From positions 3,036 through 67,035 of the forward strand of contig JBNLGJ010000066.1 in NCBI GenBank assembly GCA_050305995.1: a DNA stretch of 64,000 nucleotides, read 5' to 3'. The position numbers were made by a program, and so were the translations under genes. The DNA comes from Cellvibrio sp. Lineage in GTDB: Bacteria > Pseudomonadota > Gammaproteobacteria > Pseudomonadales > Cellvibrionaceae. The notes below the pieces were generated by a model. That model saw only the letters and a program-made list of their open reading frames with translations, ran no database searches and was not told where the DNA came from. How positions within the stretch are numbered: the first letter of the stretch is position 1; the number at the start of each line of letters is the position of its first letter. Shown here piece by piece: positions 6,548 through 32,900 of the stretch.

Positions 6548-6720
6548 GCTTGCAATTCCTCAACCCCTGGCGCGGGCAGCAGCTGGCGGGTGAGTGTGTG
6601 GAAGTTCGCATTTATGTTGGGCTTTTGAGTGGTGATTCGCACTACTGTTGTAATCGTATACATGATGCCATGGCAAGTGTTTATGATTAGAAGTTCTACT
6701 TGATCATAAGAGATAGAACC

Positions 6721-8901
6721 ATGTTGTACATCAACCGTAGCTGTTTATTCGTTCTGTGCTTGGCTCTTCTGTCTGCTTGCGGCGGCGGAGCCGGGAACTC
6801 TGGTTCGCAGGTAAAGGCTAGCGATCACAAGATCGGGGCCTTCACCTTGAAAGCCTGGGTCGGTGAAGCGGATACCTCTGTGAAAACGATCACCAGCAGC
6901 GATGGGGTTGAACTTTATCGAACCACGGACGCCAACTGCGATCTGGCCAAGTACGCGACTTGTACCAACGGCCAGATGGATATCCTCAAAGGAGTCGATC
7001 TGACCGACACCGCCTTCCTGCTCAACCAGCCCGCGCACTACACCCTGAAAGCCGGTAAGGATCAAGTGTTGTTTCCGGTCAGTGCACAGCATTTTCAACC
7101 CCGGGCCGATCATGAGGTTATCGCCTTCAAGGGCAAGCTGTGGGTATTCGGCGGCGTCAATGGTAGCGGTCGCAACATGGAAATCTGGTCGTCGATTGAC
7201 GGCAAGGCCTGGGTGCTGGAAAACCCCTATGGCTCTTTCGAGCGGCGCCAGAACCAGAAGGTCGTCGAATACAAGGGCAAGCTGTGGATGTTCGGCGGTG
7301 CATTGGGGACGGGTTTCTCTGCAACGATTTATTCATCCGAGGACGGTATCAACTGGGATTACGAAGGGTTCAATAGCGTCGTGGCGAGAGTCGGTCACGA
7401 GGTGGTCGTCTATCACGACAAGCTTTGGTTGATCGGTGGGCATACCCGGTGGGTTTGGCGTGGGCAGCCAGATCTTAATTTTTTTGAAAACGATGTCTGG
7501 ACCTCGGTGGACGGCGTTACTTGGGACAAAGTTGCAGTTTCCCAGTCGTTCACTGCCCGAAGCCAATTCGGCCTTGCCGTGTTCAACGACAAAATGTGGG
7601 TTGTCGGCGGCCTGACCAGTGAGGGCGAAGTCGCTGATGTCTGGTCCTCCAGCGATGGCGCTAACTGGACCCAATCCGCCGCTACCGGATTCGCGGGACG
7701 GATGGAGCACCAGCTGACGGTTTTTGACAACAAACTCTGGATAACCGGTGGTCGCAGCCGTGATTCCAACTCCAGCGTCAGCGCGCCTGTCTATTTTTCG
7801 GCCGATGGCGAGACCTGGACCCAGGCCCCCGTCTCCAACGCGACCAAACGCTATGCCCATGAGGCGGTAGCCTGGAACAACGAGCTATGGATAATCGGCG
7901 GTTACGCTGCCATTGACGCTAATGACAACGTCACCGAACCCCTTGACGATGTCTGGCACTCGAAAAATGGCAGCGATTGGGCGCGCGCGGATTCCAGCAT
8001 CGATGTCATAGAGCCGATGAACGAACATCAAATGGTCGAGTTCAACGGAAAACTGTGGATCATTGGCGAGGGCAGCGATTTAGGCAACAAGGCATCTGGC
8101 ATCTGGTATTCGGAAGACGGAATTGAGTGGACCGCCGCCCAATCCGATACCAATTTCTCCGAGCTTCACGGCCATCAGGCGGTCGTCTTCAACAATAAGC
8201 TTTGGGTGATCGCTGGCGAGGATAGCGACTACCAAAGCACCATCTGGTCATCGTCCGACGGTATCACCTGGACAATGGAGACAATCAACCCCGGTTTCTC
8301 CCCGCGCAAAGATCATCAGGTCACTGAGTTCAAAGGAGCGCTATGGCTGACCGGTGGCCAAAAAGACTCTACCCCCTATGACGACATTTGGACATCCACG
8401 GATGGTATTAGCTGGTCCGAAGTTACCACAGGCACTCACTTTGGCGGGCGCTATCTCCATCAGGTATTTGCGGATGACGGCAAGCTGTGGGTGATGGGGG
8501 GCGATTCGGGCGAGGGGCTGTGGGATGACGTCTGGTTTTCCGAAGATGGAATGGAATGGACTAAGTTGGGCGGTCGCTGGCCTTATTTCAAACGTAAGGG
8601 GCACCAAATGGTTGTTTTCAACGGCAAGGTTTGGATGGTGGGCGGTTACGACGAGTTTGGCAATTACCTCAATGACGTATGGTCGGTCACGCCTGGCTCG
8701 GATTGGACCCAGGTTACCAGCGCTGCCCCCTTCAGCGGTCGTCAAGGCCATCAACTGGTCGCCTTTGGCAACCACCTGGTACTCAGCGGTGGCCGCACCG
8801 CCAACCAGCGTGGTCTGACCGATGTCTGGCGGACATCCAATGGTTTGGATTGGCAAAGAGCTTACCTTAGAACGGTGAATGTGGACTGCTGTGGTAAGTA
8901 A
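6721..8901 (+). CDS. Lipoprotein with 12 Kelch-like/Asp-box repeats (probable double beta-propeller)
   Basis: Lipobox LSAC; 12 repeats of about 48 aa of the form R..H.....NGKLW..GG.....DVW.S.DG..W. Confidence 0.8.
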   Translation: MLYINRSCLFVLCLALLSACGGGAGNSGSQVKASDHKIGAFTLKAWVGEADTSVKTITSSDGVELYRTTDANCDLAKYATCTNGQMDILKGVDLTDTAFLLNQPAHYTLKAGKDQVLFPVSAQHFQPRADHEVIAFKGKLWVFGGVNGSGRNMEIWSSIDGKAWVLENPYGSFERRQNQKVVEYKGKLWMFGGALGTGFSATIYSSEDGINWDYEGFNSVVARVGHEVVVYHDKLWLIGGHTRWVWRGQPDLNFFENDVWTSVDGVTWDKVAVSQSFTARSQFGLAVFNDKMWVVGGLTSEGEVADVWSSSDGANWTQSAATGFAGRMEHQLTVFDNKLWITGGRSRDSNSSVSAPVYFSADGETWTQAPVSNATKRYAHEAVAWNNELWIIGGYAAIDANDNVTEPLDDVWHSKNGSDWARADSSIDVIEPMNEHQMVEFNGKLWIIGEGSDLGNKASGIWYSEDGIEWTAAQSDTNFSELHGHQAVVFNNKLWVIAGEDSDYQSTIWSSSDGITWTMETINPGFSPRKDHQVTEFKGALWLTGGQKDSTPYDDIWTSTDGISWSEVTTGTHFGGRYLHQVFADDGKLWVMGGDSGEGLWDDVWFSEDGMEWTKLGGRWPYFKRKGHQMVVFNGKVWMVGGYDEFGNYLNDVWSVTPGSDWTQVTSAAPFSGRQGHQLVAFGNHLVLSGGRTANQRGLTDVWRTSNGLDWQRAYLRTVNVDCCGK

Positions 8902-8921
8902 CTACTTTTGAGGATTTTATA

Positions 8922-11105
8922 ATGATTCCAGCGATAACTATGCCCTCTGCCGGATTCCGCCGCTCCTTTGTGCTCCTGTCGTCATGGGTTTTGGCAGCTG
9001 CGCTGCTTAATGGCTGTAACGATGCCGCGATCAATCCGGGGTCAAGCAGCTCGCAGAGTTCCCAGTCATCGCTAGCCAGCATCTCCAGCGCAGGCGGGAG
9101 AGCAAGTTCCGAGGCCAGTAGCACCCCAACGTCGGTGAACCCGGAACCACCGGTCGCCAAAAAAGTGTTCAATCATCCCGGTGTAATAACCTCCCAGGCC
9201 GATCTGGATCGTATGCGGACCAAAGTGGCCCAGAAAGCAGAGCCCTGGTATACCGCCTGGCAGAAGATGTCCGGCGACAGCTTTACCAATTTGGGGCGTT
9301 GGCCGCGTCCATTGGAGACGCTGGACCGGGATGGCGCCTATTCAAACTTTTCACGAATCTATGGCGAAATATGGGCCACCCATCAAGCGGCCCTGGCGTG
9401 GTATGTCACTGGTGACAAAGCCTATGCCGAACAGGCGATTCGCTACCTGAACACTTGGTCTTCAGTCATGACCGGTGTGAATGGCAATACCAATGTTAGC
9501 CTGTTGGCACTTTATGCCTACCAGCTGGCCGAATCCGCCGAGATCATGCGCAGCTACGAGGGTTGGTCCGCAGCAGACCAGCAGCGCGTTAAAAACTGGT
9601 TTGTTAATGTGTGGTATCCCATTAACGACAGTTTCCTCAGCAGAGGTGGCAGATGCGTCTCCCATTATTGGGCCAACTGGGGCCTGGCCAATGTCGCTTC
9701 GGCCATGGCGATTGGCATCTTCACCGATAATGAAAAAATCTATAACAAAGGTCTGGATATTTTATACAACGGCTTGGGTGCTGAGGCATTGGACCAATTG
9801 TTGTACCGCCGCCACCCCGGCAATATGGGGCAGTATCAGGAGAGCGGGCGCGACCAGGGGCATGCGTCCTTGGGTTACGCCTTGTATGGTGCAATCGCCA
9901 AGATGGCGTTAAACCAGGGCGATGATATCTTCGCTTATAACAACTACGAATTGCTGGCGACAACTGAGTACATCGCCAAATACAATTCGGGGGAAGAGGT
10001 GCCTTACGCCACTTACGATAATTGCGATAACGTCAACCAGACGGAAGTTGCCGCCGGTGCGCGGGGCATTTATCGAAACGGTTGGAACCTGCTCGCCAAC
10101 CAATACGAGAACCGCCTGGGTATAGCCGCGCCCTGGACCAGGAAAAAGGCCGACGAAATCTTCCCCGAATATCGCGGAGGGGCGGATGAGCTGGCCTGGG
10201 GCGGCCTAACGGAAACGCTGGAGCCCTTTCCGTTAGGCGGCGCACCGCGAGGTCTGACGCCGACCATCCGCAACGGTGAGATTTCCTTGTCCTGGTGGGG
10301 AGCGACCGGCTCGGAAAGTTACCGGCTGCAACGCGCCGAATCGGCGGCAGGCCCCTATAGCGTGATCGCCACCCGAGGCGCCGAGGAACTACTGACCTAC
10401 ACCGACCTCGATGTAAAGCTCGGGAAACAATATTTCTACCAAGTCACCGCTCTCTCACCCAAGGGTGAAAGCGAGCCTTCGAACAGGGTTGCCGTAACGG
10501 CGGGACATGATTTGCGCTACCGTCTGACCTTTGATGATCTGAAAGAAGGTGTCACGGACGGTGTTTTAGGCAAGGCCTTGGTCTTGGATGGCGTTAAAGA
10601 TTACTACACCATCGATAAACCCGATTTGGTCTCCGGTCTGGGTGATTTCACCTTGTCGGGCTGGGTCAAAGCGGATACCAACAAGGGCTGGCAACGGTTG
10701 ATCGACATAGGTGCGGATGACCAGCGATTCATGACTCTGATCCCCTTCGGTGTGGATAGAAAGGCCTGTTTTATCATCGCCAAGGTCGGAACCTTCGGAA
10801 CCTACTATGTGCCCAAGGCCACTCAATTGTGTGGCGGCCAACCGGTTACCGGGAAGTGGATGCACCTGGCAGTTACCCTGAAGGGGAAAACCGCCGTGTT
10901 GTATCTCAATGGCGAGGAAGTCGCGCGCGACGAGGCGACGAGGTTCATCCCGGACCAATTGGGCAGGCTCGATCAAATCTGGGTAGGGCGCTCACAGTTT
11001 GGCAATGATCCGTTACTGGCCGGGCAAGTGGACGACATACGGCTGTACAGCGGGGCGCTTGGCGCCGATGAGGTGAAAGCATTGTACTCGGCTGGAACCC
11101 TGTAA
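8922..11105 (+). CDS. Lipoprotein: alginate-lyase-family (alpha/alpha) domain + FN3 + LamG/ConA-like domain
   Basis: Lipobox LNGC then a Ser-rich linker; HPG...DLDRMR.KV...EPW, HYWANW and QESGRDQGH motifs; FN3 (ISLSW..A.G..SY, YQVTA....GES); LamG (FTLSGWVK, W.HLAVT, LYLNG, G.VDDIRLY). Confidence 0.75.
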   Translation: MIPAITMPSAGFRRSFVLLSSWVLAAALLNGCNDAAINPGSSSSQSSQSSLASISSAGGRASSEASSTPTSVNPEPPVAKKVFNHPGVITSQADLDRMRTKVAQKAEPWYTAWQKMSGDSFTNLGRWPRPLETLDRDGAYSNFSRIYGEIWATHQAALAWYVTGDKAYAEQAIRYLNTWSSVMTGVNGNTNVSLLALYAYQLAESAEIMRSYEGWSAADQQRVKNWFVNVWYPINDSFLSRGGRCVSHYWANWGLANVASAMAIGIFTDNEKIYNKGLDILYNGLGAEALDQLLYRRHPGNMGQYQESGRDQGHASLGYALYGAIAKMALNQGDDIFAYNNYELLATTEYIAKYNSGEEVPYATYDNCDNVNQTEVAAGARGIYRNGWNLLANQYENRLGIAAPWTRKKADEIFPEYRGGADELAWGGLTETLEPFPLGGAPRGLTPTIRNGEISLSWWGATGSESYRLQRAESAAGPYSVIATRGAEELLTYTDLDVKLGKQYFYQVTALSPKGESEPSNRVAVTAGHDLRYRLTFDDLKEGVTDGVLGKALVLDGVKDYYTIDKPDLVSGLGDFTLSGWVKADTNKGWQRLIDIGADDQRFMTLIPFGVDRKACFIIAKVGTFGTYYVPKATQLCGGQPVTGKWMHLAVTLKGKTAVLYLNGEEVARDEATRFIPDQLGRLDQIWVGRSQFGNDPLLAGQVDDIRLYSGALGADEVKALYSAGTL

Positions 11106-23665: not shown

Positions 23666-24571
23666 TTAATAGTGGAAAAAAATTAAATAGAGCAGACCTA
23701 TATATAGCCCGTATTGCAGGATATTGTAAAGCGGGCGATTAAATGCCTTGATTTTTTTACCAAGCAGCCCCACCCGGTAAACTGCACCAAAAATATAATT
23801 GAGAAAGCCAACCTTGTCGCCCTTGATATTTTTGGTGGCGGCACCGGCAACCACCAGGCGTGAAAAGGCGCGATTAATCCAATCCACCAAAAAGAAATTA
23901 ATCGGACGTTTGATGTCCAGGAATAAAATAATGCGATTTTTATCGCTTTTATTTTCCGCGCTGTGAATATAAGTTTCATCAAACATCACCACTTCGCCAT
24001 CGCGCCAGGAGTAGCGCTGGCCATCGACATCAATAAAGCAATCGTCCGAGTTGGGCGTTACCAATCCCAGGTGATAGCGCAGTGAACCGGCGTAGGGATC
24101 GCGGTGGGCCCCCAGGCGTGCGCCCGGTGGCAGCATGGTAAACATGGCGCCTTTAACCTGAGGTAACTGATTGAGCAGTGCCAGGGTTTTGGGGCAAAGC
24201 TGTTCGGCTGATCGGAGGTTGGCGCCATACCACTTGAGGTAAAAACGCTTCCAGCCCGTGCGGAAAAATGAGTTAAAACCCAGGTCATCGAGATCGGCCG
24301 ATGCTTTAATATGCGCTGCTTCGTTTAGTTGCAAAGCTTCGTCGCGAATCAACTCCCAGTTATCTTGCAATACTTTTAATTCGGGAAATTTAGCGGGGTC
24401 AATAAAGGGGGTATTTTTCTCGCTGGAAAACAGATAGAACAAGCAGTTAATAGGGGCGAGAAAATTAGCGTGATCGGTCAGGCGGCGGGCAAAACGAACA
24501 TGCTGCACTTGACCGCGATTTTGCACATAAATACTACAAAGAACAAAGACAATAAAGATGGTTATTCCCAT
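23666..24571 (-). CDS. lpxO: Lipid A hydroxylase LpxO (Asp/Asn beta-hydroxylase family)
   Basis: LTDHANFLAPIN, FNSFFRTGWKRFYLKWY, HRDPYAGSLRYHLGL, FDETYIH, RIILFLDI. Confidence 0.88.
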   Translation of the reverse strand: MGITIFIVFVLCSIYVQNRGQVQHVRFARRLTDHANFLAPINCLFYLFSSEKNTPFIDPAKFPELKVLQDNWELIRDEALQLNEAAHIKASADLDDLGFNSFFRTGWKRFYLKWYGANLRSAEQLCPKTLALLNQLPQVKGAMFTMLPPGARLGAHRDPYAGSLRYHLGLVTPNSDDCFIDVDGQRYSWRDGEVVMFDETYIHSAENKSDKNRIILFLDIKRPINFFLVDWINRAFSRLVVAGAATKNIKGDKVGFLNYIFGAVYRVGLLGKKIKAFNRPLYNILQYGLYIGLLYLIFFHY

Positions 24572-24982
24572 AGCTATCTCTTCCTTTAGGGGGTGCGGCG
24601 ATTGGCGGGCGTTAAGTTAATGCCCCAGGCCAGGCTAATCAAGCCCAATCAACTATTAATGACAAGTGTAAGGACGCATTGTAGTAAAGATTAAATACCT
24701 GCCAACAGCCATAGGTTTTTAGGTGCCAGAATTTTCGCTTATCTATTGAGTAGAGGGGGGGGGAGGCAGTGGTGACGCGGGCGGGGTAGCAGGCAGGTTC
24801 CAGGTATCCCGGCCAGTTTTGGGTTAGGGCTCTATTGGTTTCACTCTGGGGTGTTGCTGGTGGTGAGTGTCCGCTTCCGAGGGAGCTTCAGGTCAGGCCC
24901 TCAAGTGTTAACTCCTTTGGGGACGTGATACGGTACCTCCTATTCCTTCATACGATTAGCTGATGCTGGCGAATATTATCTG

Positions 24983-25113
24983 GGCGAAGCCGAGACGGCA
25001 CTTATCGCGCTGGGTCACAAACCTACCGAAGCCAGCAAGATGGTCGCCGCTGCCGTTAAGCAAAAAGCGAATATTTAATCTGCATGGTGCTGCGCAGCAT
25101 GGTTAGCGCCTAG
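24983..25113 (+). pseudogene. ruvA: Isolated 3' fragment of ruvA (domain III) with a frameshift
   Basis: GEAETALIALGHKPTEASKMVAAAVKQK, then a frameshift, then EYLICMVLRSMVSA*; resembles the RuvA C-terminus EA..AL.ALGYKP.EA..MV.....E.LIR.ALR. Confidence 0.7.
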
Positions 25114-25276
25114 ATCAAGCCATGATTATTAAGCCGTCATTCATACACGAAGAAGCAAGATGCGCACTGCTCATCAAAGGGGCAAAAAGTTCGAATTTGC
25201 CGAAGATTTTGTTTAGTTTTGTCCGGGTTATTAGCCTGTTGTGCTAAGGCGAAAATACCTCTGCTTGGGCAGCTAG

Positions 25277-25915
25277 CAGACTGCTGAAAAACCCAAAAAA
25301 TACAATAATTGCACAGCAATATAATTTGGAACAAAAAAATGCGCGGCGAAACCTCCACATAAAGCGAACTGTTTAGCTACGTGAGTCTCGAATCACGTAT
25401 TCCGGCGGGTCATCCCATCAGAATAATTCGCAGCGTTGTTGATAAAGCGCTGGCGGATATGAATTCTGCATTCGATGAGATGTATTCCATTATCGGGCGC
25501 CCTCTATTCCGCCCGAGCAACTTATTCGCGCGTTGCTGTTACAAATTTTATTTACGATTCGCTCTGAGCACCAGCTCATGAAACGTCTGGATTACACCTG
25601 ATGTTTCGCTGGTTTGTCGGCCTAGGCATGGATGCCAATGTCTGGCATCCCACCGTATTCACCAAAAATCGAGACCGGGTAATGAAGGACAATGTCGATG
25701 AACTTTTCTTCGGCGCGATTAAGAAACAAGCCTATGCCAAAAAAATGATGTCACGCGATCATTTCAGTGTTAATGGCACTCTGCTGAACGCCTGTGCTCG
25801 ATGAAATCATTCAAACCCAAGGACGGCACTGATGATAATGAAAGTTTTCATGGTCTAAAGTGCAGTAACGAAACGCACGAATCGACAACAGATGCCGATG
25901 CGCGTCTATTTCGCG
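25277..25915 (+). mobile_element. Degenerate, 3'-truncated IS5/IS1182-like insertion sequence
   Basis: Left-end-like CTAG|CAGACTGCTGAAAAA at 25273-25291; MRGETST*SELFSYVSLESRIP..HPIR (ATG 25339, premature TAA); three frameshifts give GRPSIPPEQLIRA, LMFRWFVGL..D..VW.PTVFTKNRDR and HESTTDADARLFR; no right end seen. Confidence 0.85.
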
Positions 25916-26277
25916 CTATCGCCTTAATAGAGAGGCTTCCATATTGAACTGTATCGTTTTTATATGATTATCAGTTGGCGACTGCATTCAATCATAATGC
26001 CGCCAAGGTAAATCCCGAATAGTCCTGTACCCAGACGTTTTCAGGGAGGGAATGGATCATTCTATGGTGAATGAAAACATCGAAAAAATTGCGAATTACA
26101 GCAATTTAGGAAAATAGTAGCCAACATATCGACTTCCCCACAGATAACATCTAATCTGCGCGAATTAGAAATGATTATGTTAAAGAGGTTTGGTGTAAAT
26201 TTGACCAAACAATCGTTGTTAAAATTGGCTGTGGATAAGCATTTTCTGAAAGGTGATTGTTAGCACACTAGAGGCAC

Positions 26278-26697
26278 ATGGACATATACAAGAAAATTCA
26301 GAAAGTTCGTGGTGGTTGTATCGCGGGGATCAAAGAGGCAAAGGTGGAGTCTGTAGAGTCAGCCGCCGAGCTATTTGGCCTTTCGAATGAAAGCGACATC
26401 TATAAAAACATCGAGCGCGCTGAAGCTATAGAGGTTTTAAGGAACGTCCTCCATAAAGACATGGCCTATAGCATAAAAATCATGTCTTCCGAAAAGGCTA
26501 AAAACCTGGCAGTGGAATTCGTAGATAATTTTGGAAAAGAGGCCAAATTCTATACCAATGGTGAATATGGCAAACCACGGAAAAAGCCAAATTTTGGTCC
26601 ATCATGGTCACCAGCTACCGATGCAACTTTCGATACTGGTGTAATTGTAATAATTAAAGAGATGGTTGGTTGTGTTTGGTTTACAGATGAAGACTAG
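26278..26697 (+). CDS. Hypothetical protein in cassette-like context (possible immunity-type protein)
   Basis: AT-rich 139-aa ORF with GAGG RBS; C-terminal ATDATFDTGVIV....GCVWFTDED; preceded by GTTAGCA (26259-26265). Confidence 0.75.
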   Translation: MDIYKKIQKVRGGCIAGIKEAKVESVESAAELFGLSNESDIYKNIERAEAIEVLRNVLHKDMAYSIKIMSSEKAKNLAVEFVDNFGKEAKFYTNGEYGKPRKKPNFGPSWSPATDATFDTGVIVIIKEMVGCVWFTDED

Positions 26698-26787
26698 TAC
26701 TAACAATTCAAAGTGGCTGGCGTGGTAAAGTTGCCACCTCTTTTTATTCCAAAAAACCGCCATCTTCATCCGTTTGATGCGTTAGGC
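26698..26787 (+). other. Degenerate attC-like integron recombination site
   Basis: R''-like TACTAAC right after the stop, CAAA/TTTG inner arms, AAGTTG/CATCTT, terminal TTTTT-ATTCC-AAAAA hairpin, and R' GTTAGGC (26781-26787). Confidence 0.6.
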
Positions 26788-26866
26788 TTTGATTCCCGCT
26801 CCCGTGGATATTCAAATACTTGAGCTTCTTTTGCATCCTCATAACAATCATAGGTAGGTTACACGG

Positions 26867-27199
26867 ATGAATTGGCGCCCACTTGCAACCTGCAAGCAAG
26901 AGTCATTTGCAAGAGGCGTAGTTTTTCGCTTCCCAGCAAAAGCTCCATTTGAGCAAACTGTTGACTTCATGATTATTGAAGATCATGACTCGCCAACCTT
27001 TTATAAACTTATATGTTCTTCTGGATATCACGCTGGCCAAACAGAGTTAGTCTTTCCAATAGAAGCAAAGCATGAAGCCGGCGGAGTCTCAGTGGCTTGG
27101 TTAAAGAAAAATTGGCAAACCTGGGTTTACCCGGAGTGTGAAGCTGAAAACGTTAATTACGCCAATTGCTATCCCGCTGGCCATGTCGAAAAAACCTAA
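26867..27199 (+). CDS. Imm45-like immunity protein
   Basis: RG..FRFPA..PFEQTVDFM...SSGYHAG....FP.EA.....S..WL..NW..WVYPEC pattern; stop overlaps the R''-like ACCTAAC (27194-27200). Confidence 0.7.
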   Translation: MNWRPLATCKQESFARGVVFRFPAKAPFEQTVDFMIIEDHDSPTFYKLICSSGYHAGQTELVFPIEAKHEAGGVSVAWLKKNWQTWVYPECEAENVNYANCYPAGHVEKT

Positions 27200-27349
27200 C
27201 GTCTATTTTTTGCGAGGCTCATAGCATGTGCAATACATGTAATTGATGAAAAAGCTATCAGCAACTGAGCTGCGTTTAATGGCTGGCAAATCGAGTATTC
27301 GAGCCAAACTGGCTTCTTGACTTGGTATCCATTTGGATATGAGAAACTT

Positions 27350-27643
27350 ATGCATGAGTTATTTGCTTTGTCACTATCGCCACTACTTGTATTTGCATGG
27401 CAGCCACTGCGTATTTTATGCGTGCTAATTCTTATGCTCTTGCCCTGTTTGTTTAATTGGCATAAAAAATCTGCGAAATTGATTATGGCGATAAGTGCAT
27501 TGCCTTGGATGTTATTTTTGTATACAGAGGCTAGCATCCCTGTGTCATCCAATATTCGTGTAGATTTAGCTATTTTGGGGCCCATTTATTTGCTTAGTGC
27601 CATAATATGGGTTGTCATATTTGTTGCGGGAAAGTTTCGATGA
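27350..27643 (+). CDS. Small membrane protein with NIRVDL motif (start 27317 or 27350)
   Basis: Three or four hydrophobic segments, SNIRVDLAIL; ATGA overlap with the next gene. Confidence 0.6.
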   Translation: MHELFALSLSPLLVFAWQPLRILCVLILMLLPCLFNWHKKSAKLIMAISALPWMLFLYTEASIPVSSNIRVDLAILGPIYLLSAIIWVVIFVAGKFR

Positions 27644-28452
27644 AAACTGTTTTTGGATTATTAGGTTTGGTTGGTGTTGTGTTTTTGATGGCTTTTGGGG
27701 GGAGTGGAAATAATGGGGTGTCTAGCTTACAGGTGATTAATGCTGCAAATGCTGCAGCACCGGAGAATAATTCAACAGCATCTCAAGGCGTCAATGTGTT
27801 GGTGTGCCATAAGGATAAAAATAAAAAGTTGCAACAAAACTACAGTGTTGATGCCTCAAGAACCTTTCCCTTGATCCAAAGTTCAGCGCTAGCCATGAAG
27901 GGGATAAGTACTGCTGTGAAAAGTCAGCCTCAAGCATCACAAACAGCTTTTGGTATCACGGTGGCGACAGTGTTGGCGACTCCGGCACTTGCCTCAACAC
28001 AGCTGATGTACGCAACCTGTTCGGTGCTTGATAAGAACAATAAAGCCGTGTGTGGATATGATACATCTTCGTCGGTTTTTGGCTTCAAGCAAGAAACAAA
28101 AGCTGAAGAAAGCATGAAATACACTCGTAAAATAACGCTTAATAATGGCGATAAAATTACAGTAAGGGGGAAAGAAGGCAATCCAAATGATGTAGAAATA
28201 GTTACAAAAGAAACTACAACGGCTTGGCATCGTGATCAGAGTGGACAAGAAATGATGGATATTTACTCATCAAACAGCCTACATGTCGTGGCTGTAGAAA
28301 ATCCAGACTGCTCAGGAACGCTAACGGCAGAGTGGATTGATGGAACAAAAGTAAACGCCAAGTGGCAGTATATAGGCGAAAATAAAACATCAGGAACCTT
28401 TGTGTCAGCGTCGCCAAAGCAAGCAGCACTGAATTTTACGCTGAGTTGGTAG
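27640..28452 (+). CDS. Hypothetical exported protein
   Basis: 270-aa AT-rich ORF, hydrophobic N-terminus MKTVFGLLGLVGVVFLMAFGGSG, coupled to the upstream stop. Confidence 0.65.
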   Translation: MKTVFGLLGLVGVVFLMAFGGSGNNGVSSLQVINAANAAAPENNSTASQGVNVLVCHKDKNKKLQQNYSVDASRTFPLIQSSALAMKGISTAVKSQPQASQTAFGITVATVLATPALASTQLMYATCSVLDKNNKAVCGYDTSSSVFGFKQETKAEESMKYTRKITLNNGDKITVRGKEGNPNDVEIVTKETTTAWHRDQSGQEMMDIYSSNSLHVVAVENPDCSGTLTAEWIDGTKVNAKWQYIGENKTSGTFVSASPKQAALNFTLSW

Positions 28453-28459
28453 CATCGTT

Positions 28460-28954
28460 ATGTCATTACATTACACGGTGACGCTCAACTTAAGGCTTAA
28501 GCACGATTTGACCGTCATTGAAATTAGCGCATTAGACTACATCCTTAATGGAAATGGCGGGCCGCCTACTGCACTGCCGAAGCACGAATTTTTCAAAAAT
28601 GGCATTCCTAAATATCTACATTGGCAATCTTACATGCGTTTCCCAACTGGAAGCTGGCGCTCTGAATTTTGGCGGGGGGTAAATGCTCCAGGCAGCTCTG
28701 ATGCAGATGAAGTCAATTACGGCGTAAATTTATTGTTGCCTGGCCAAAAACTGGAAGGGGCTTTGAGTGAGCTCCCCTTTTTTTGCTGGCTTGCAACCAT
28801 CAGTAGCTCGGTAGGCTATGTTGGCGCGGCTACTTGCGAAGATGATTCTATTGGAATGCCAATATTTATTTTATTCATCCACGACCAAGCATTAAAAATA
28901 AGTAGCCTGTCTAACGATATTATTATGGAATCTGCTGAAGGAATATCGGGTTAA
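28460..28954 (+). CDS. Hypothetical protein
   Basis: 164-aa ORF starting 7 nt after the previous stop; no family recognised. Confidence 0.6.
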   Translation: MSLHYTVTLNLRLKHDLTVIEISALDYILNGNGGPPTALPKHEFFKNGIPKYLHWQSYMRFPTGSWRSEFWRGVNAPGSSDADEVNYGVNLLLPGQKLEGALSELPFFCWLATISSSVGYVGAATCEDDSIGMPIFILFIHDQALKISSLSNDIIMESAEGISG

Positions 28955-28979
28955 GTTACTGGCTTAACATAAAATATTT

Positions 28980-29897
28980 TTAAATTCGGCTTAAGCTTTT
29001 AATCGCTAGCGCTGCTGCCGATGTCCTGTTCTCCACCCCAAGCTTTTTAAATATCTGCTCCAGGTGTTTATTCACTGTACGCGGGCTCATCTCCAGAATC
29101 TGGCCGATTTCGCGGTTGGTTTTGCCCTTGGCAATCCACAGCAGCACATCGGCTTCGCGCTGGGTTAGCGGAAAATCCTGGCGCAGCGAATCGGCGGCAG
29201 CCTCGGCTTGCTGTATGGGTTTTAGGCGTAAGAGATATTCGCGCTGATCAATTAAATTCAATAATTCCAGCTGTAAACCCTGTGCCTGGGCATCCAGATT
29301 CAGCTGGTGTCCGGTTTCCGGCTTGTGTGCCAGCCAGTGCGCAATTTGCGCCTGCAATGCAGTTGGCAGTTGCTGTTCGCTGTCAAGCGCACCTTTCAGG
29401 TTAAGGTGCTGGTAGACCTGCGGCGTTGCCCAGCGCAAACGCCCGGTGGCATCCAGGGTGAGTAAAAACTGGCCGGCGGAGTCCAGGGCCGCGCGCGCCT
29501 GTTGGTTAATTCGCGCATTGGTCAGGTGTACACGCATGCGTGCAATTAACTCTTCGGCGCGAATCGGTTTGGTTACATAATCCACGCCACCGGCATTTAA
29601 TCCCATTAACACATGCTCGGTATCGCTGAGGCCGGTCATAAAAATAATCGGCGTGTCAGCCAGTTGGGGTTTGCGTTTTAAATGGCGGCAGGTATCAAAG
29701 CCATTCATATTGGGCATAAGGGCATCGAGCAAAATAATATCCGGGCGAATATTTTCACTGATGGTCAGCGCCTGGGTGCCCTCCAGCGCTACCAGCACGG
29801 TAAAGTCTTCCTCTTCCAGCAGGTCGTTAAGCATGTGAATACTGTCGAGTGAATCGTCCACCACCATAACTATGGGCTTGCTGCTTTTGGATTTCAC
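28980..29897 (-). CDS. Response regulator (REC + LuxR-type HTH)
   Basis: VMVVDD, ILLDALMP, IIFMTG, DYVTKP; C-terminal LTQREADVLLWIAKGKTNREIGQILEMSPRTVNKHLEQIFKKLGV. Confidence 0.92.
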   Translation of the reverse strand: MKSKSSKPIVMVVDDSLDSIHMLNDLLEEEDFTVLVALEGTQALTISENIRPDIILLDALMPNMNGFDTCRHLKRKPQLADTPIIFMTGLSDTEHVLMGLNAGGVDYVTKPIRAEELIARMRVHLTNARINQQARAALDSAGQFLLTLDATGRLRWATPQVYQHLNLKGALDSEQQLPTALQAQIAHWLAHKPETGHQLNLDAQAQGLQLELLNLIDQREYLLRLKPIQQAEAAADSLRQDFPLTQREADVLLWIAKGKTNREIGQILEMSPRTVNKHLEQIFKKLGVENRTSAAALAIKSLSRI

Positions 29898-29902
29898 TCT
29901 AT

Positions 29903-32900
29903 TTACTCCAGTTGGTCCGAAGATTCGAAATGGTTAACGCCTTCGAGTAGATTAATTATTTTTTCAAATTGATATTGCTTGGTCAGTTGCTGGATTTGTG
30001 TGAGCAGTTGGCCGTTGTTTTGCGGCGGCAGTTTTTGTAAAAAATCCAGTAAACCTTTGCGGTGACCAATGCGCGCTAATTGCAACAGGGTTTCTTTTAT
30101 CTCCGGCGATACAGCATTGGCTGTTGATACGTCCGCGTCCTCTGCGGGTGACAGCGGCGATTGAGGTTCGTCCTGCTGATAATTCCACGCCAGCCCCAAT
30201 TGTTGCTGCAGATGTTCCAGCAGCAGCGGCAGTCGCAATGGCTTAATGATGTAAGCCTGGTGCAGGGGTGGGGCGTCGGGCGAATTGCCATATTGCTCGC
30301 GGCCTTCACTGGCATCGGCGGATACCATAATTACCGGCAGCTTAAATTGCTGCGCGCGCAGCGCTTGGAGTAGCTCCCAACCGCTCTGGCCAGGCATGTT
30401 GACATCCAGCATCAGCAGCGAGGGTAAATTATTAGCGGCTCGCGCTGTCTCCAGCAGCGGCAGCAGCTCCTGGGCATTGGCCAGGTCGAGAATGTCAAAG
30501 CCGAGTGGCTCCAGCAGCGCGCGCATTAACTGGCGGTGGGAGTCTTCATCATCGACTAGCCATAAAGTTTTACGCGCACCTTGGTAGCCGTAAATTTGCT
30601 GGCTGTGCTGAACTATAGGGTCGCGCCTGGGGTGATCGATACGCGCCAGCATTAAGCTGGCTTTAAAACAGCTACCCTGGCCGGGGTTGCTGGTAACGGC
30701 AATATCGCCGCCCATAATTTCACTGAGCAAGCGGGTGATAGTGAGGCCAAGGCCGGTGCCGGCAATGGTGGAGCCGGGTTTGCGCACCCGCTCAAAGGGG
30801 CGGAAGATGCGCTCGAGGTTTTCGCCGCTGATACCCTCGCCAGTATCGGTCACCGAAAATTCTGCCACTTGACTGCGGTAGCGCACTTTAAAGCATACGC
30901 TGCCGCGCTCGGTGTATTTGATGGCATTGGAGAGCAGGTTAATTAAAATTTGGCGCAGGCGCTTTTCATCGGTTTTAACCAGCTCTGGCAAGCGGTCGTC
31001 GCACTGGTAAATAAAGCTCAGGCCTTTGGCCTCGGCTTGCAGGCGGAACATCTGCACCAATTGTTCTAGCAATAGCGCTATAGCTACCTGGTCCTGGTGT
31101 AAGTCCAAACGTCCCGCTTCAATTTTAGAAATATCCAGCAGGCCTTCAATTAAATCGGCCAGGTGCTCGCCGCTGCGGCGAATCACCGCCAGGGCATCGC
31201 GCCTGTGCTCGGGCATGCGCGGATCTTTTTCCAATAGTTGCGCATAGCCGAGTATGGCGTTAAGTGGTGAGCGCAACTCGTGGCTGATGCCGGTGAGGTA
31301 GCGGCTTTTGGCCAGGTTGGCCGCTTCGGCTTTTTCTTTGGCCAATTGCAGCTCGCGGTCGGTGCGCTCGTGGGCTTCAATTTCCTCCATTAACAGGCGC
31401 GTCTGCCGCTGCGACTCCTCCTGGGCAAAATGTCGGCTCTCCTGCGCCAACACAAACAGCCAGCTCACCACGCCGGTGATAATAACCAGCAGAAAAAACA
31501 CCTTCCACAGGGTGGCTTCCAATAAGGCGGCGGTTTCCAGCGTTGCAAAGGGGGTTTGAAAATAAATGAGCGAGAGCAAAATAGCGGAGAGACCGTTAAT
31601 CACCACAATCAAAATAAAAAACTGGCCCAGGCGTGGGTTGATGCGCGCAATTAAGGATTGGGGTAAAAAATGCTTAAAAAAATCGCGCATTTGCGAACTG
31701 TAGTCCGCCCCGGGTTTGCAGTAATCCTGGCAGCGGGCGTCTAGCGAGCAGCAGAGTGAGCAGATATGTCCGGCATAGGCCGGACAGTAAGTCATATCCT
31801 CGGCTTCAAACCTGTGCTCGCAAATACAACAGGTATTGAGTGCATCAACAGTTTCATGTGCGGCATGCAGCGGTGGGCGGGCTAAGTAGTAACGTCCTTG
31901 GGTGCGCCAGGCGATGAGTGGTGCCAGCAAGAGGGCAGTGGCCAGTGCAATAAAGTGGGAGAGGGCGCGCGCCACCTCGCCCAATAGGCCTGTGTGACAG
32001 AGGATGCCCAGCAGTGAGGCGCCGAGCATAGCGCCAAAGCCGACTGGGTTTATATCGTAGAGGTGCGCGCGTTTAAATTCTATGTGCGGCGGGCTCAGGC
32101 CCAGGGGTTTATTAATAATTAAATCGGCCACCAATGCACCCAGCCAGGCCACCGCGACTATGCCGTAATAGCCCAGGGTTTGTTCCAGGGCGCGGTAGAC
32201 CCCCAGCTCCATTAACAGTAGCGCAATGGCGACGTTAAATACCAACCAGACGACGCGCCCTGGGTGACTGTGGGTGAGGCGCGAAAAAAAATTGGACCAG
32301 GCGATAGAGCCAGCATAGGCGTTAGTGACATTAATTTTGAGCTGGCTGAGGATGACAAATATCCCCGCCATGGACAGCGCCGCCTGAGGTGAATTGGCAA
32401 TATAGCTAAAGGCAACCATATACATGCGCGTTGGGTCTGCAGCGAAATGTGCATCTATGCCGTGGCCAATTGCGAGCACGGCGAGGAAAGAACCGGCGAG
32501 GATTTTAATTGCACCTATCACAATCCAGCCGGGGCCACCGGCGATAAGCGCCGCCCACCAGTGGAGTTTTTTACCGGGTTTGGCCGGGGGCAAAAAGCGC
32601 AAAAAATCTACCTGCTCGCCAATTTGCGCAATCAGCGAAAATACCACCGCCGAGGCGGCGCCAAATAGCAGCAGGCTTGCGCTGTTATCGCCAGGGTTTG
32701 CCGGAGCTAATTGCGCGCTGCCTTGATACTGGGTCCAGCTTTCCACCGCGCTGGCATCGGCGTAAAGGATAAACACGAAGGGCGCCAGCTGCAGCAGTAC
32801 CCACAGCGGCTGGCTCCACAATTGAAAGCGGCTGATAAAGGTGATGCCGTGGGTTACCAGCGGAATTATCACGATGGAACTCAGTAAATAGCCCCAGGCA

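What the first reader, a model, noticed from the sequence alone, without database searches (positions are those of the whole stretch)
26259..28968. Integrase-less integron-like cassette array stocking immunity-type genes
Seen: five co-oriented AT-rich ORFs. Cassette 1 begins G|TTAGCA and ends TACTAAC (complementary but for 1 nt). A 90-bp imperfect palindrome ends in GTTAGGC, and cassette 2 ends ACCTAAC over its stop (again 1 nt from complementary). A lone GCTTAAC follows the last ORF. One ORF looks like Imm45 and no cognate toxin is present. Established: CALINs are attC clusters lacking intI. Inference: a decaying array that collects orphan polymorphic-toxin immunity genes, i.e. an acquired interbacterial-defence locus built on integron cassettes.
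Basis: partly seen in the sequence, partly recalled or inferred. Interest (0 to 1): 0.7.

Follow-up and report, generated by a model that had tools for sequence, protein, structure and literature searches.

The report
Fossil integron cassette fragment, no integrase
This low-GC island is a decayed piece of an integron gene-cassette array: two of its five genes, one an Imm45 toxin-immunity gene, are proven integron cassettes in other bacteria, but only one weakened recombination site survives, so it is an ordinary relic and not an active immunity-collecting system.

Summary
Five co-oriented ORFs lie in a 41-45% GC island (about 25050-28979) inside a 52-57% GC chromosome. ORF2 is Imm45 (E 5.9e-18). 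No integron integrase occurs anywhere in the 64 kb.

Comparative data show a real integron origin. ORF1 homologues in five other genomes start at the same G|TTAGCAC boundary, and in four of them the gene lies in an attC array. One array has IntI and 17 cassettes. Window 26698-26787 is 85-86% identical to the attC of that same cassette. It is also the single best hit in the whole window for two attC covariance models (18.5 bits, E about 0.03). Its hairpin has decayed: -11 kcal/mol against -27 and -30.

Imm45 homologues are integron cassettes too, once as the first cassette beside IntI. Here the Imm45 core site is mutated (GGTAGGT at 26853), not at 26781 as claimed. Its attC is gone except for the in-frame ACCTAAC.

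ORF3-ORF4 and ORF5 show no attC. The lone GCTTAAC is at chance level.

With one attC, the locus is SALIN-grade, not a formal CALIN. Only one of five genes is an immunity family.

Verdict: a fossil array fragment, a new member of a known kind. The immunity-collecting idea is not supported.

The parts
25363..25947 (+). Remnant of an IS5-family transposase gene: N-terminal part only, frameshifted, and truncated before the DDE domain. It sits at the left side of the island.
   Evidence: DUF772 hit, E 1.2e-6. About 66-70% nucleotide identity to annotated IS5 family transposases in plasmids over 25363-25678. Broken into three short ORFs.
26259..26266 (+). 5' boundary of cassette 1: G|TTAGCAC, the core-site remnant of R'.
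   Evidence: The same G(T/C)TAGCAC lies 19 nt before the ATG in all six loci. The sequence to its left differs in every locus.
26278..26697 (+). ORF1, 139 aa, function unknown. It is a recurrent integron cassette gene.
   Evidence: Homologues at 73-86% identity in Marinobacter daepoensis, an Alcanivoracaceae MAG, a Pseudomonadota MAG (integron with IntI), a Cellvibrionaceae MAG and Agarilytica. dN/dS 0.11-0.25. AlphaFold2 pLDDT 87.8 with no PDB fold match. No Pfam, NCBIfam or PADLOC hit.
26698..26787 (+). Degenerate attC of cassette 1. R'' TACTAAC 26698-26704; spacer AAT; L'' TCAAA 26708-26712; L' TTTGA 26773-26777; spacer TGC; R' GTTAGGC 26781-26787. The stem beyond the L box is disrupted by about 10 nt of indels.
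   Evidence: Best hit in the whole 64-kb window for model R1, which was trained without any ORF1-cassette attC: 18.5 bits, E 0.026; E 0.0018 when only the island is searched. Model R2 gives 18.6 bits. 85-86% identical to the attC of the same cassette in L011 and L012. Folds at -11.4 kcal/mol (z -1.5) against -27 and -30 (z -5.8 and -7.6) for those homologues.
26788..26839 (+). Orphan spacer between the attC1 R' site and the next vestige. Possibly the remains of a lost cassette.
   Evidence: No ORF, and no homology to any fetched locus. Inference only.
26840..26866 (+). Collapsed attC vestige (CATAAC AAT CATAG) fused to the mutated 5' boundary of the Imm45 cassette, GGTAGGTTACACGG (26853-26866). 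The GTT has become GGT at 26854.
   Evidence: Imm45 homologue cassettes begin G|TTAGGT(T/C)ACACG-ATG in L027 and L032 and G|TTAGGT in L030, and homology with the window begins exactly here. Only a weak R1 match at 26839-26864: 6.4 bits, E 1.7.
26867..27199 (+). ORF2, 110 aa, Imm45 family. This is the predicted immunity protein for ColE3-type rRNase toxin domains. It is orphan here (no toxin gene).
   Evidence: PF15572, E 5.9e-18. Imm45 is paired with Tox-ColE3 in PMC3482391. Homologues are integron cassettes, in one case the first cassette beside IntI. dN/dS 0.07-0.10.
27194..27200 (+). ACCTAAC: the retained R'' of the former Imm45-cassette attC. It overlaps the last codons and the stop. The rest of that attC is absent.
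   Evidence: AACCTAAC is conserved at the same position in L027, L030 and L032, where a 60-76 nt attC follows. In the window the following sequence is unrelated, and neither R1 nor R2 finds an attC there.
27350..27643 (+). ORF3, 97 aa, a small hydrophobic (membrane) protein. Its stop overlaps the ORF4 start (ATGA).
   Evidence: Gene call and ATG at 27350. The ORF3-ORF4 pair, with the same overlap, is conserved in metagenome contig L038. dN/dS 0.16.
27640..28452 (+). ORF4, 270 aa, with an N-terminal signal or anchor sequence. Function unknown; a very rare family.
   Evidence: 71% identity to L038. Only 9 representative clusters among 1.84 billion proteins. No family or PDB sequence hit.
28460..28954 (+). 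ORF5, 164 aa, function unknown. It occurs as a single gene elsewhere.
   Evidence: Six homologues. In Marinobacter sp. ANT_B65 it lies 2.4 kb beyond a four-attC array. In Neptuniibacter it follows a 33-nt attC-like vestige ending GCGTTAGAC. dN/dS 0.12. The structure model was poor, pLDDT 47.

Best explanation
The island (about 25050-28979) is a fossil fragment of an integron cassette array, now fixed in the chromosome of a marine gammaproteobacterium.

At least two units were once mobile cassettes. These are ORF1 with its attC, and the Imm45 gene. They were moved by an integron integrase through recombination at G|TT core sites.

The integrase and attI are no longer nearby, and an IS5-family element has inserted and decayed at the left edge.

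Without integrase-driven selection the recombination sites have eroded:
- attC1 keeps its R and L boxes but has lost its stem.
- The site upstream of Imm45 has collapsed to about 20 nt, and its GTT is mutated.
- The site downstream of Imm45 is gone apart from the part that is coding sequence.

The five protein-coding genes are intact and their families are under purifying selection, so the genes are probably still used. The array itself no longer works as a capture-and-shuffle device.

Shown: cassette homology, the attC model hit, absence of IntI in the window, intact ORFs.

Inferred: the order of events, loss of recombination activity, and that ORF3-ORF5 arrived with the same fragment.
For: 1. 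The G|TTAGCAC boundary is identical in six loci, with unrelated sequence to its left in each.
2. ORF1 homologues are followed by canonical attC sites scoring 27-59 bits with a model not trained on them, and four lie in attC arrays. L013 has IntI plus 17 one-ORF cassettes.
3. Window 26698-26787 is the only attC-model hit below E = 1 in 64 kb on both strands, for two models. It is 85-86% identical to the L011 and L012 attC.
4. The L011 and L012 attCs are 93% identical to each other, against 83% for their coding sequences, and they show an A/T to T/A double substitution at apparently opposed stem positions. The window copy carries indels that lower folding from about -27/-30 to -11 kcal/mol.
5. 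Imm45 homologues at 68-82% identity are cassettes. In Stutzerimonas nitrititolerans one is the first cassette beside a TIGR02249 integron integrase (472 bits).
6. There is no IntI in the window, and an IS5 remnant is adjacent.
7. dN/dS is 0.07-0.25 for all five ORFs.
8. Pieces of the island are present at 97-99.5% identity in a related population in 2015 marine-sediment metagenomes.
Against: - Only one attC-like site is detectable, and it scores well below real sites (18.5 against 25-60 bits), with a rough E-value near 0.03.
- No attC, core-site conservation or array context was found for the ORF3-ORF4 pair. Evidence for ORF5 is indirect.
- The sequence left of G|TTAGCAC is not attC-like or attI-like.
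- No closely related genome lacking the island was found, so the insertion boundaries are inferred from GC content only.
- IntegronFinder's own model was not available. My models come from nine loci, mostly marine Gammaproteobacteria.
- The rest of the source genome could not be searched for intI.
Confidence: 0.8

Rival explanations
1. A still-active CALIN. The attC sites remain recombinogenic, and an integron integrase encoded elsewhere in the genome can excise and reshuffle these cassettes in trans.
For: R and L boxes, 3-nt spacers and the extrahelical G of attC1 are intact, with every modelled pair standard. CALINs mobilised in trans are an accepted idea. The rest of the genome could not be checked for intI.
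Against: Only one site is detectable with two models. Its stem is disrupted, and the L box is not even paired in the minimum-energy fold. The next core site is GGT instead of GTT. ORF3, ORF4 and ORF5 are packed with no intergenic room.
Confidence: 0.08
2. Off-target cassette insertion (the SALIN route). The ORF1 cassette was inserted by an integrase directly at a genomic GTT site inside a pre-existing low-GC island, so the locus was never part of an integron.
For: The sequence left of G|TTAGCAC is not an attC. A broken small ORF runs right into it. Isolated cassettes inserted outside att sites are documented (bioRxiv 10.1101/2022.09.11.507474). The Alcanivoracaceae locus L012 likewise has no attC or IntI upstream of the same cassette.
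Against: A second, independent cassette (Imm45) with its own core-site vestige and retained R'' lies 66 nt downstream of attC1's R' (26787 to 26853), preceded by a collapsed attC. Two adjacent former cassettes are more simply explained by an array fragment.
Confidence: 0.12
3. A polyimmunity or orphan-immunity locus of a polymorphic-toxin system (Rhs, CDI or T6SS type), built by displacement and homologous recombination. It would be unrelated to integrons, with all five genes being immunity genes.
For: Imm45 is a polymorphic-toxin immunity family, and heterogeneous polyimmunity loci exist (PMC3482391). The genes are small, co-oriented and low in GC.
Against: No toxin, Rhs, CdiA or T6SS gene was found in the island or among ten large ORFs of the window. 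The other four ORFs match no immunity family. The homology breakpoints of ORF1 and Imm45 fall at integron core sites, and their homologues lie in attC arrays.
Confidence: 0.05
4. The attC-like motifs are coincidence, and the island is an ordinary horizontally acquired gene cluster.
For: RYYYAAC is at chance frequency. The fold z-scores are not significant. No internal repeats exist.
Against: The window element is 85-86% identical to a bona fide attC of the same cassette. It is the top hit of an independent covariance model across 128 kb of searched strand. The boundary is conserved in six loci.
Confidence: 0.02

Closest known systems
CALIN / SALIN elements (clusters of attC sites, or single attC sites, lacking an integron integrase; Cury et al. 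2016; PMC9024848; bioRxiv 10.1101/2022.09.11.507474)
   Same: Cassette-derived genes with attC remnants, no intI nearby, and a transposable-element remnant alongside. These elements are thought to be degraded integrons or displaced pieces of arrays.
   Different: Only one site reaches significance, and it is weaker than normal attCs. The locus therefore meets the SALIN definition but not the 2-attC CALIN default. The remaining boundaries survive only as vestiges visible by comparison with other genomes.
Sedentary chromosomal integrons of marine and soil Gammaproteobacteria. Examples here: L013 (Pseudomonadota MAG) and L030 (Stutzerimonas nitrititolerans).
   Same: The same two cassettes (ORF1 family and Imm45), the same core-site boundaries, and cassette lengths of about 520 bp.
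   Different: Those have IntI, attI and regular attC sites after every ORF, scoring 25-60 bits. The window has none of the platform and one eroded site.
Recombinase-associated acquired interbacterial defence (rAID) clusters of Bacteroidales (Ross et al. 2019, Nature; cited from my own knowledge, not checked here)
   Same: The concept of arrays of orphan immunity genes acquired horizontally and kept without the toxins.
   Different: rAID clusters have their own tyrosine recombinase and repeats and many immunity genes. Here there is no recombinase, the sites are integron attC remnants, and only one gene is a recognised immunity family.
Heterogeneous polyimmunity loci of polymorphic toxin systems (Zhang et al. 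2012, PMC3482391)
   Same: Contains an Imm-family gene (Imm45) without its toxin.
   Different: No other Imm families, and no adjacent toxin or secretion genes. The boundaries are integron core sites.

Membership tests
Integron gene cassette (ORF1 unit, 26260-26787) | Starts at a conserved core-site remnant (TTRRRY-like) that is the homology breakpoint between arrays | tested here: met
   G|TTAGCAC (GCTAGCAC in one) lies 19 nt before the ATG in six loci, with unrelated upstream sequence in each. TTAGCA deviates from the strict RRRY consensus.
Integron gene cassette (ORF1 unit, 26260-26787) | Ends in an attC with R''-L''...L'-R' boxes that an attC covariance model recognises | tested here: met
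   R1 18.5 bits (E 0.026 for the whole window, 0.0018 for the island) and R2 18.6 bits. All 10 modelled pairs are standard. The score is low next to 27-59 bits for the homologous cassettes. IntegronFinder's own model was not run.
Integron gene cassette (ORF1 unit, 26260-26787) | The attC bottom strand folds into a stable imperfect hairpin | tested here: not met
   -11.4 kcal/mol, z -1.5, and the L box is not paired in the minimum-energy fold. The direct homologues give -27 and -30 kcal/mol, z -5.8 and -7.6. Caveat: two other attCs that the covariance models score as real (L013, L014) also had weak z-scores.
Integron gene cassette (ORF1 unit, 26260-26787) | The same gene is found as a cassette in integrons that have IntI | tested here: met
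   L013 has an IntI homologue at 583-1482 plus 17 cassettes, one of which carries the ORF1 homologue.
Integron gene cassette (Imm45 unit, 26853-27200) | G|TT core site at the 5' boundary | tested here: not met
   The homologous position reads GGTAGGT, against GTTAGGT in L027, L030 and L032.
Integron gene cassette (Imm45 unit, 26853-27200) | attC at the 3' end | tested here: not met
   Only R'' ACCTAAC remains. There is no model hit, and the downstream sequence is unrelated to the homologues' attC.
Integron gene cassette (Imm45 unit, 26853-27200) | Homologues are cassettes in integrons | tested here: met
   L030: first cassette beside IntI (TIGR02249, 472 bits against a cut-off of 265). L027 and L028: flanked by attCs on both sides. 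L030: an attC directly follows the gene. In L032 a short attC follows by eye, but only a more distal site (2194-2253) reached the model threshold.
CALIN (IntegronFinder 2 default) | At least two attC sites clustered | tested here: not met
   There is one hit only. The next best in the island are E 0.45 and 1.7. Definition from PMC9024848.
CALIN / SALIN | No integron integrase nearby | tested here: met
   tblastn of a verified IntI against the 64-kb window gives a best E of 1.1.
SALIN | A CDS associated with a single attC, without integrase or other att sites | tested here: met
   ORF1 plus the 26698-26787 element. Definition in bioRxiv 10.1101/2022.09.11.507474.
Complete integron | intI, attI and the Pc promoter upstream of the array | tested here: not met
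   No IntI. The region left of the cassettes holds an IS5 remnant and unassigned low-GC DNA. The promoter scan is at chance level.
Imm45 (PF15572) | Profile match above the gathering score over the full domain | tested here: met
   65.8 bits against 25; residues 10-96 cover profile positions 5-98 of 100.
Imm45 (PF15572) | Neutralises a cognate (ColE3-type) toxin | not testable with these tools
   The association with Tox-ColE3 is from comparative genomics (PMC3482391). There is no toxin gene in the island.

The most novel reading that the evidence does not exclude
Integrons of marine and soil Gammaproteobacteria circulate orphan polymorphic-toxin immunity genes as ordinary single-gene cassettes. 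Imm45 is seen here in three independent arrays, once in the promoter-proximal first position beside IntI. Barstar sits in the same array as one of them. On this reading the integron cassette pool would double as an acquired interbacterial-defence bank, comparable to Bacteroidales rAID clusters. This genome would have kept one such immunity gene, under purifying selection, long after the integron machinery decayed. Perhaps the unknown neighbours ORF1 and ORF5 are also immunity-type proteins.
Probability: 0.25. Interest if true: 0.55.

Novelty: new member of a known kind. Interest (0 to 1): 0.3.

Why it matters
The locus itself is an ordinary degraded integron fragment. Thousands of CALIN and SALIN elements are already catalogued.

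It has two modest uses:
- It is a clear worked case of how attC sites erode once the integrase is gone. The stem is lost by indels, one site has collapsed to about 20 nt, a GTT is mutated, and an R'' survives only because it is coding. Meanwhile the cargo genes stay under purifying selection. Motif-based or single-model scans would miss most of this.
- It gives concrete examples of a polymorphic-toxin immunity gene (Imm45) travelling as an integron cassette, including in first position in a Stutzerimonas integron. My full-text searches found no paper that describes this. It would be cheap to test.

Tried and rejected
- Rfam scan of the region: only noise, and no attC family appeared among the matches.
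- Repeat search in the island: no attC-like repeat family.
- Minimum-energy fold z-scores as an attC test: rejected as a sole criterion, because attCs that the covariance models score highly (L013 and L014, 41-59 bits) also gave z of -1.3 and +0.3.
- A home-made energy scan for AAC...GTT pairs: too noisy in high-GC loci, so it was used only to harvest training sites.
- Pfam, NCBIfam, PADLOC and PDB sequence searches for ORF1, ORF3, ORF4 and ORF5: nothing.
- Foldseek of the confident ORF1 model against PDB: best E 0.38.
- ORF5 structure model: too poor to search.
- The upstream broken ORF (26040-26262) looked ribbon-helix-helix-like by eye, but Pfam gave nothing.
- Search for an empty site or a close relative: the flanking proteins are singletons at 90% identity, and exact look-ups returned only island-bearing contigs.
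- No synteny between the window flanks and any array locus.
- Candidate second attC at 27194-27281 and third at 28909-28968: rejected.
- RNA-seq evidence for expression: only DNA metagenome runs hold the sequence.
Full report
**What is in the window**

Between a gene for an Asp/Arg beta-hydroxylase-like protein (23666-24571, minus strand) and a LuxR-type response regulator (28980-29897, minus strand) lies a stretch of about 4 kb at 37-47% GC. The surrounding chromosome is 52-57% GC. From left to right it contains:
- the N-terminal remnant of an IS5-family transposase gene, frameshifted and truncated (25363-25947);
- about 300 nt of unassigned low-GC DNA;
- five co-oriented intact ORFs: ORF1 26278-26697 (139 aa), ORF2 26867-27199 (110 aa), ORF3 27350-27643 (97 aa), ORF4 27640-28452 (270 aa) and ORF5 28460-28954 (164 aa).

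ORF2 is a full-length Imm45 domain (PF15572, E 5.9e-18). Imm45 is the family that comparative genomics pairs with ColE3-type rRNase toxin domains (PMC3482391). The other four ORFs match nothing in Pfam, NCBIfam, PADLOC or PDB sequences.

**Are the motifs more than chance?**

Taken alone, no.
- RYYYAAC occurs 106 times in the window against 110 +/- 11 in shuffles.
- The 26695-26792 stretch folds no better than shuffled sequence on either strand (z -0.97 and -1.37).
- The island has no internal repeat family.

The case rests entirely on comparison with other genomes.

**Cassette 1 is real**

A scan of species-representative genomes with the ORF1 family returned 16 loci. Adding the Agarilytica locus gives five gammaproteobacterial loci plus the window. 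In all six, the motif G(T/C)TAGCAC lies exactly 19 nt upstream of the ATG, and the sequence to its left is different in every locus. That is the signature of a cassette boundary.

In four of them the stop codon is followed at once by GTGCTAAC and an 81-98 nt element ending GGCGTTAnnn. These four are Marinobacter daepoensis L011, the Alcanivoracaceae MAG L012, the Pseudomonadota MAG L013 and the Cellvibrionaceae MAG L014. A fifth locus, L025, also has an attC-like element after the gene. L013 is a textbook integron: an IntI homologue at 583-1482, followed by 17 units of one ORF plus one attC.

I built covariance model R1 from 20 attC sites of these arrays, deliberately leaving out every attC that follows an ORF1 homologue. 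The L-box helix covaries strongly. The left-out ORF1-cassette attCs then scored 27-59 bits, so the model generalises.

I searched the whole 64-kb window with filters off on both strands. The single hit below E = 1 was 26698-26787 on the plus strand (18.5 bits, E 0.026). All R-box and L-box pairs were standard. A second model built from 53 sites in nine loci gave the same single hit (18.6 bits).

Independently of any model, the window element is 85-86% identical over aligned positions to the attC of the same cassette in L011 and L012. The adjacent coding sequences are 87% identical.

**The site is eroded**

- L011 and L012 attCs are 93% identical to each other, although their coding sequences are only 83% identical.
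- They carry an A/T to T/A double substitution at positions that appear to lie opposite each other in the stem.
- They fold as near-perfect hairpins with extrahelical bases: -27 and -30 kcal/mol, z -5.8 and -7.6.
- The window copy has about 10 nt of indels, mainly in the 3' arm, and unpaired substitutions in the 5' arm. It folds at -11.4 kcal/mol (z -1.5), and its L box is not paired in the minimum-energy structure.
- It scores 18.5 bits where its closest homologues score 34-36.

The R boxes, 3-nt spacers, L boxes and the extrahelical G survive.

**Cassette 2 (Imm45) is real but its sites are gone**

Homologues at 68-82% identity sit in attC arrays:
- In Stutzerimonas nitrititolerans (L030, L031) the gene is the first cassette, next to a divergent recombinase. 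That recombinase is an integron integrase by TIGR02249: 472 bits against a cut-off of 265.
- In L027 and L028 it is one of many small cassettes, alongside Barstar, ParE and a Cys-rich protein, each followed by an attC.
- In L032-L034 it precedes a RelE/HTH cassette.

In these loci the cassette begins G|TTAGGT, followed in L027 and L032 by (T/C)ACACG-ATG, and ends AACCTAAC at the stop, followed by a 60-76 nt attC.

In the window, homology starts at 26853 with GGTAGGTTACACGG. Just before it, CATAACAATCATAG looks like an attC collapsed to its outer boxes (26840-26853; a weak model match of 6.4 bits).

At the 3' end ACCTAAC (27194-27200) is conserved, but it is part of the reading frame. What follows is unrelated to the homologues' attC and gives no model hit. 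The proposed second attC therefore does not exist.

**ORF3, ORF4 and ORF5**

- ORF3 and ORF4 overlap by ATGA. They are conserved as a pair, with the same overlap, in one metagenome contig (L038, 71-78% identity). That contig has no attC.
- The ORF4 family is tiny: 9 representative clusters among 1.84 billion proteins.
- ORF5 starts 7 nt after ORF4, so no attC can lie between them.
- ORF5 homologues occur as single genes elsewhere. In Marinobacter sp. ANT_B65 one lies 2.4 kb beyond a four-attC array.
- In Neptuniibacter one is preceded by a 33-nt attC-like vestige ending GCGTTAGAC.

That evidence is suggestive but indirect. The GCTTAAC after ORF5 has no comparative support and is at chance frequency. 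A weak match inside the ORF5 3' end (28909-28956, E 0.45 in the island search) rests on a GGTTAA (GGTTGA in Neptuniibacter) that encodes the Gly-stop found in the homologues checked.

**Platform and state**

No integron integrase is encoded anywhere in the window (tblastn with the verified IntI, best E 1.1). Ten large window ORFs are housekeeping or polysaccharide-use genes, with no toxin or secretion system among them.

All five island ORFs are intact and the same length as their homologues. Pairwise dN/dS against the nearest homologues is 0.07-0.25.

Contigs from 2015 marine-sediment metagenomes carry pieces of the island at 97-99.5% identity. The adjacent response-regulator gene is at 93%. 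The island is therefore a stable feature of a natural lineage, not an assembly artefact.

**Interpretation**

The best reading is a fossil fragment of an integron cassette array. It was either left behind when the platform was lost or moved here with help from the neighbouring IS. Its recombination sites have since decayed while its genes were kept.

By the published definitions it is a SALIN, meaning one attC and no integrase (bioRxiv 10.1101/2022.09.11.507474). It is not a CALIN under the IntegronFinder 2 default of two sites (PMC9024848).

The alternative that the ORF1 cassette was inserted off-target at a genomic GTT cannot be excluded, because the sequence to its left is not attC-like. 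The adjacent Imm45 cassette vestiges make an array fragment the simpler account.

**The immunity-bank idea**

Only one of the five genes is a recognised immunity family.
- ORF1 has a confident predicted structure (pLDDT 87.8) with no match in the PDB.
- The ORF5 model was too poor to use.
- The integron carrying the ORF1 cassette holds the usual mix of unknown and GNAT genes.

The locus therefore does not look like a device that selectively collects immunity genes.

What is worth noting is that Imm45, and Barstar beside it in L027, do circulate as integron cassettes. Full-text searches found no paper that describes polymorphic-toxin immunity genes as integron cassettes. This is a testable lead, not a finding about this locus.

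Noticed in passing
L030 6852-8399 (Stutzerimonas nitrititolerans, GCA_032115515.1): An Imm45 homologue (68% identity) is the first cassette, directly beside a divergent integron integrase (TIGR02249, 472 bits). This is the promoter-proximal position in a complete chromosomal integron. The next cassette encodes an Mrr-like restriction endonuclease.
   Followed up: partly
L027 104-4973 (metagenome assembly GCA_002049665.1): A cassette array holds Barstar (immunity to barnase-type RNases), Imm45, a ParE toxin and a Cys-rich CPCC protein, with attC hits after seven of the ORFs (368 to 2885). Two immunity-type cassettes sit in one array.
   Followed up: partly
window 26278-26697 and loci L015-L026: The ORF1 family (invariant ATDATFDTG...W..DED C-terminus) is scattered across Gamma-, Alpha- and Betaproteobacteria, Verrucomicrobiota, Planctomycetota, Cyanobacteria, Bdellovibrionota and Myxococcota. 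Its AlphaFold2 model is confident (pLDDT 87.8, pTM 0.84), but Foldseek finds no PDB match better than E 0.38. It may be an undescribed fold.
   Followed up: partly
L008 7980-8430 (Agarilytica rhodophyticola CP020038): The ORF1 homologue keeps a perfect GTTAGCAC ... GTGCTAAC boundary pair but has no detectable attC after it. It lies about 5 kb from a type I-F CRISPR-Cas locus. This is another fossil cassette outside an array.
   Followed up: partly
L038 1545-2210: In the only other locus with ORF3-ORF4, a 620-bp segment carrying an unrelated 197-aa ORF sits between the ORF4 stop and a remnant of the ORF5 start (MSSHYTVT, about 30 nt). That remnant is fused in frame to a different gene. Both junctions share TGGTA(G/A). 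The contig also carries fragments that looked by eye like type I restriction hsdR and a DUF45-type hydrolase gene; these were not checked with any family search.
   Followed up: partly
L005 7955-7987 (Neptuniibacter pectenicola) and window 26840-26859: Two very short attC-like vestiges (20-33 nt) keep only the outer R''/spacer and spacer/R' parts, as if the whole hairpin interior had been deleted. This may be a recurrent way for attC sites to die.
   Followed up: no
L011 10421-10518 vs L012 10421-10518: The attCs of the same cassette in two genera are 93% identical, while the adjacent coding sequences are 83% identical (third positions 71%). An A/T to T/A double substitution appears to preserve a stem pair. 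This suggests selection on attC structure in the arrays of these two genomes.
   Followed up: partly
window 26722-26746: The central part of the degenerate attC forms a short GC-rich hairpin followed by a T-run (GTGGTAAAGTTGCCAC CTCTTTTTAT). It was picked up as terminator-like and may end ORF1 transcription.
   Followed up: no
window 26040-26262: A broken small ORF (start MDHSMVNENIEKIA, then a frameshift into ...LRELEMIMLKRFGVNLTKQSLLKLAVDKHFLKGDC*) has a stop codon that overlaps the G|TTAGCAC boundary. It looked ribbon-helix-helix-like by eye, but Pfam gave nothing.
   Followed up: partly
window 24000-30000, runs X5 and X6 (marine sediment metagenomes, 2015): A related population carries island pieces at 97-99.5% identity, while the adjacent response-regulator gene is only about 93% identical. 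In that population the ORF1 R'' reads TGTTAAC instead of TACTAAC.
   Followed up: no
window 6700-11105: A Kelch-repeat protein and an alginate lyase with a laminin-G domain lie upstream. The flanking housekeeping proteins are singletons at 90% identity in a 15-billion-protein collection. The host appears to be a poorly sampled marine polysaccharide-degrading gammaproteobacterium.
   Followed up: no
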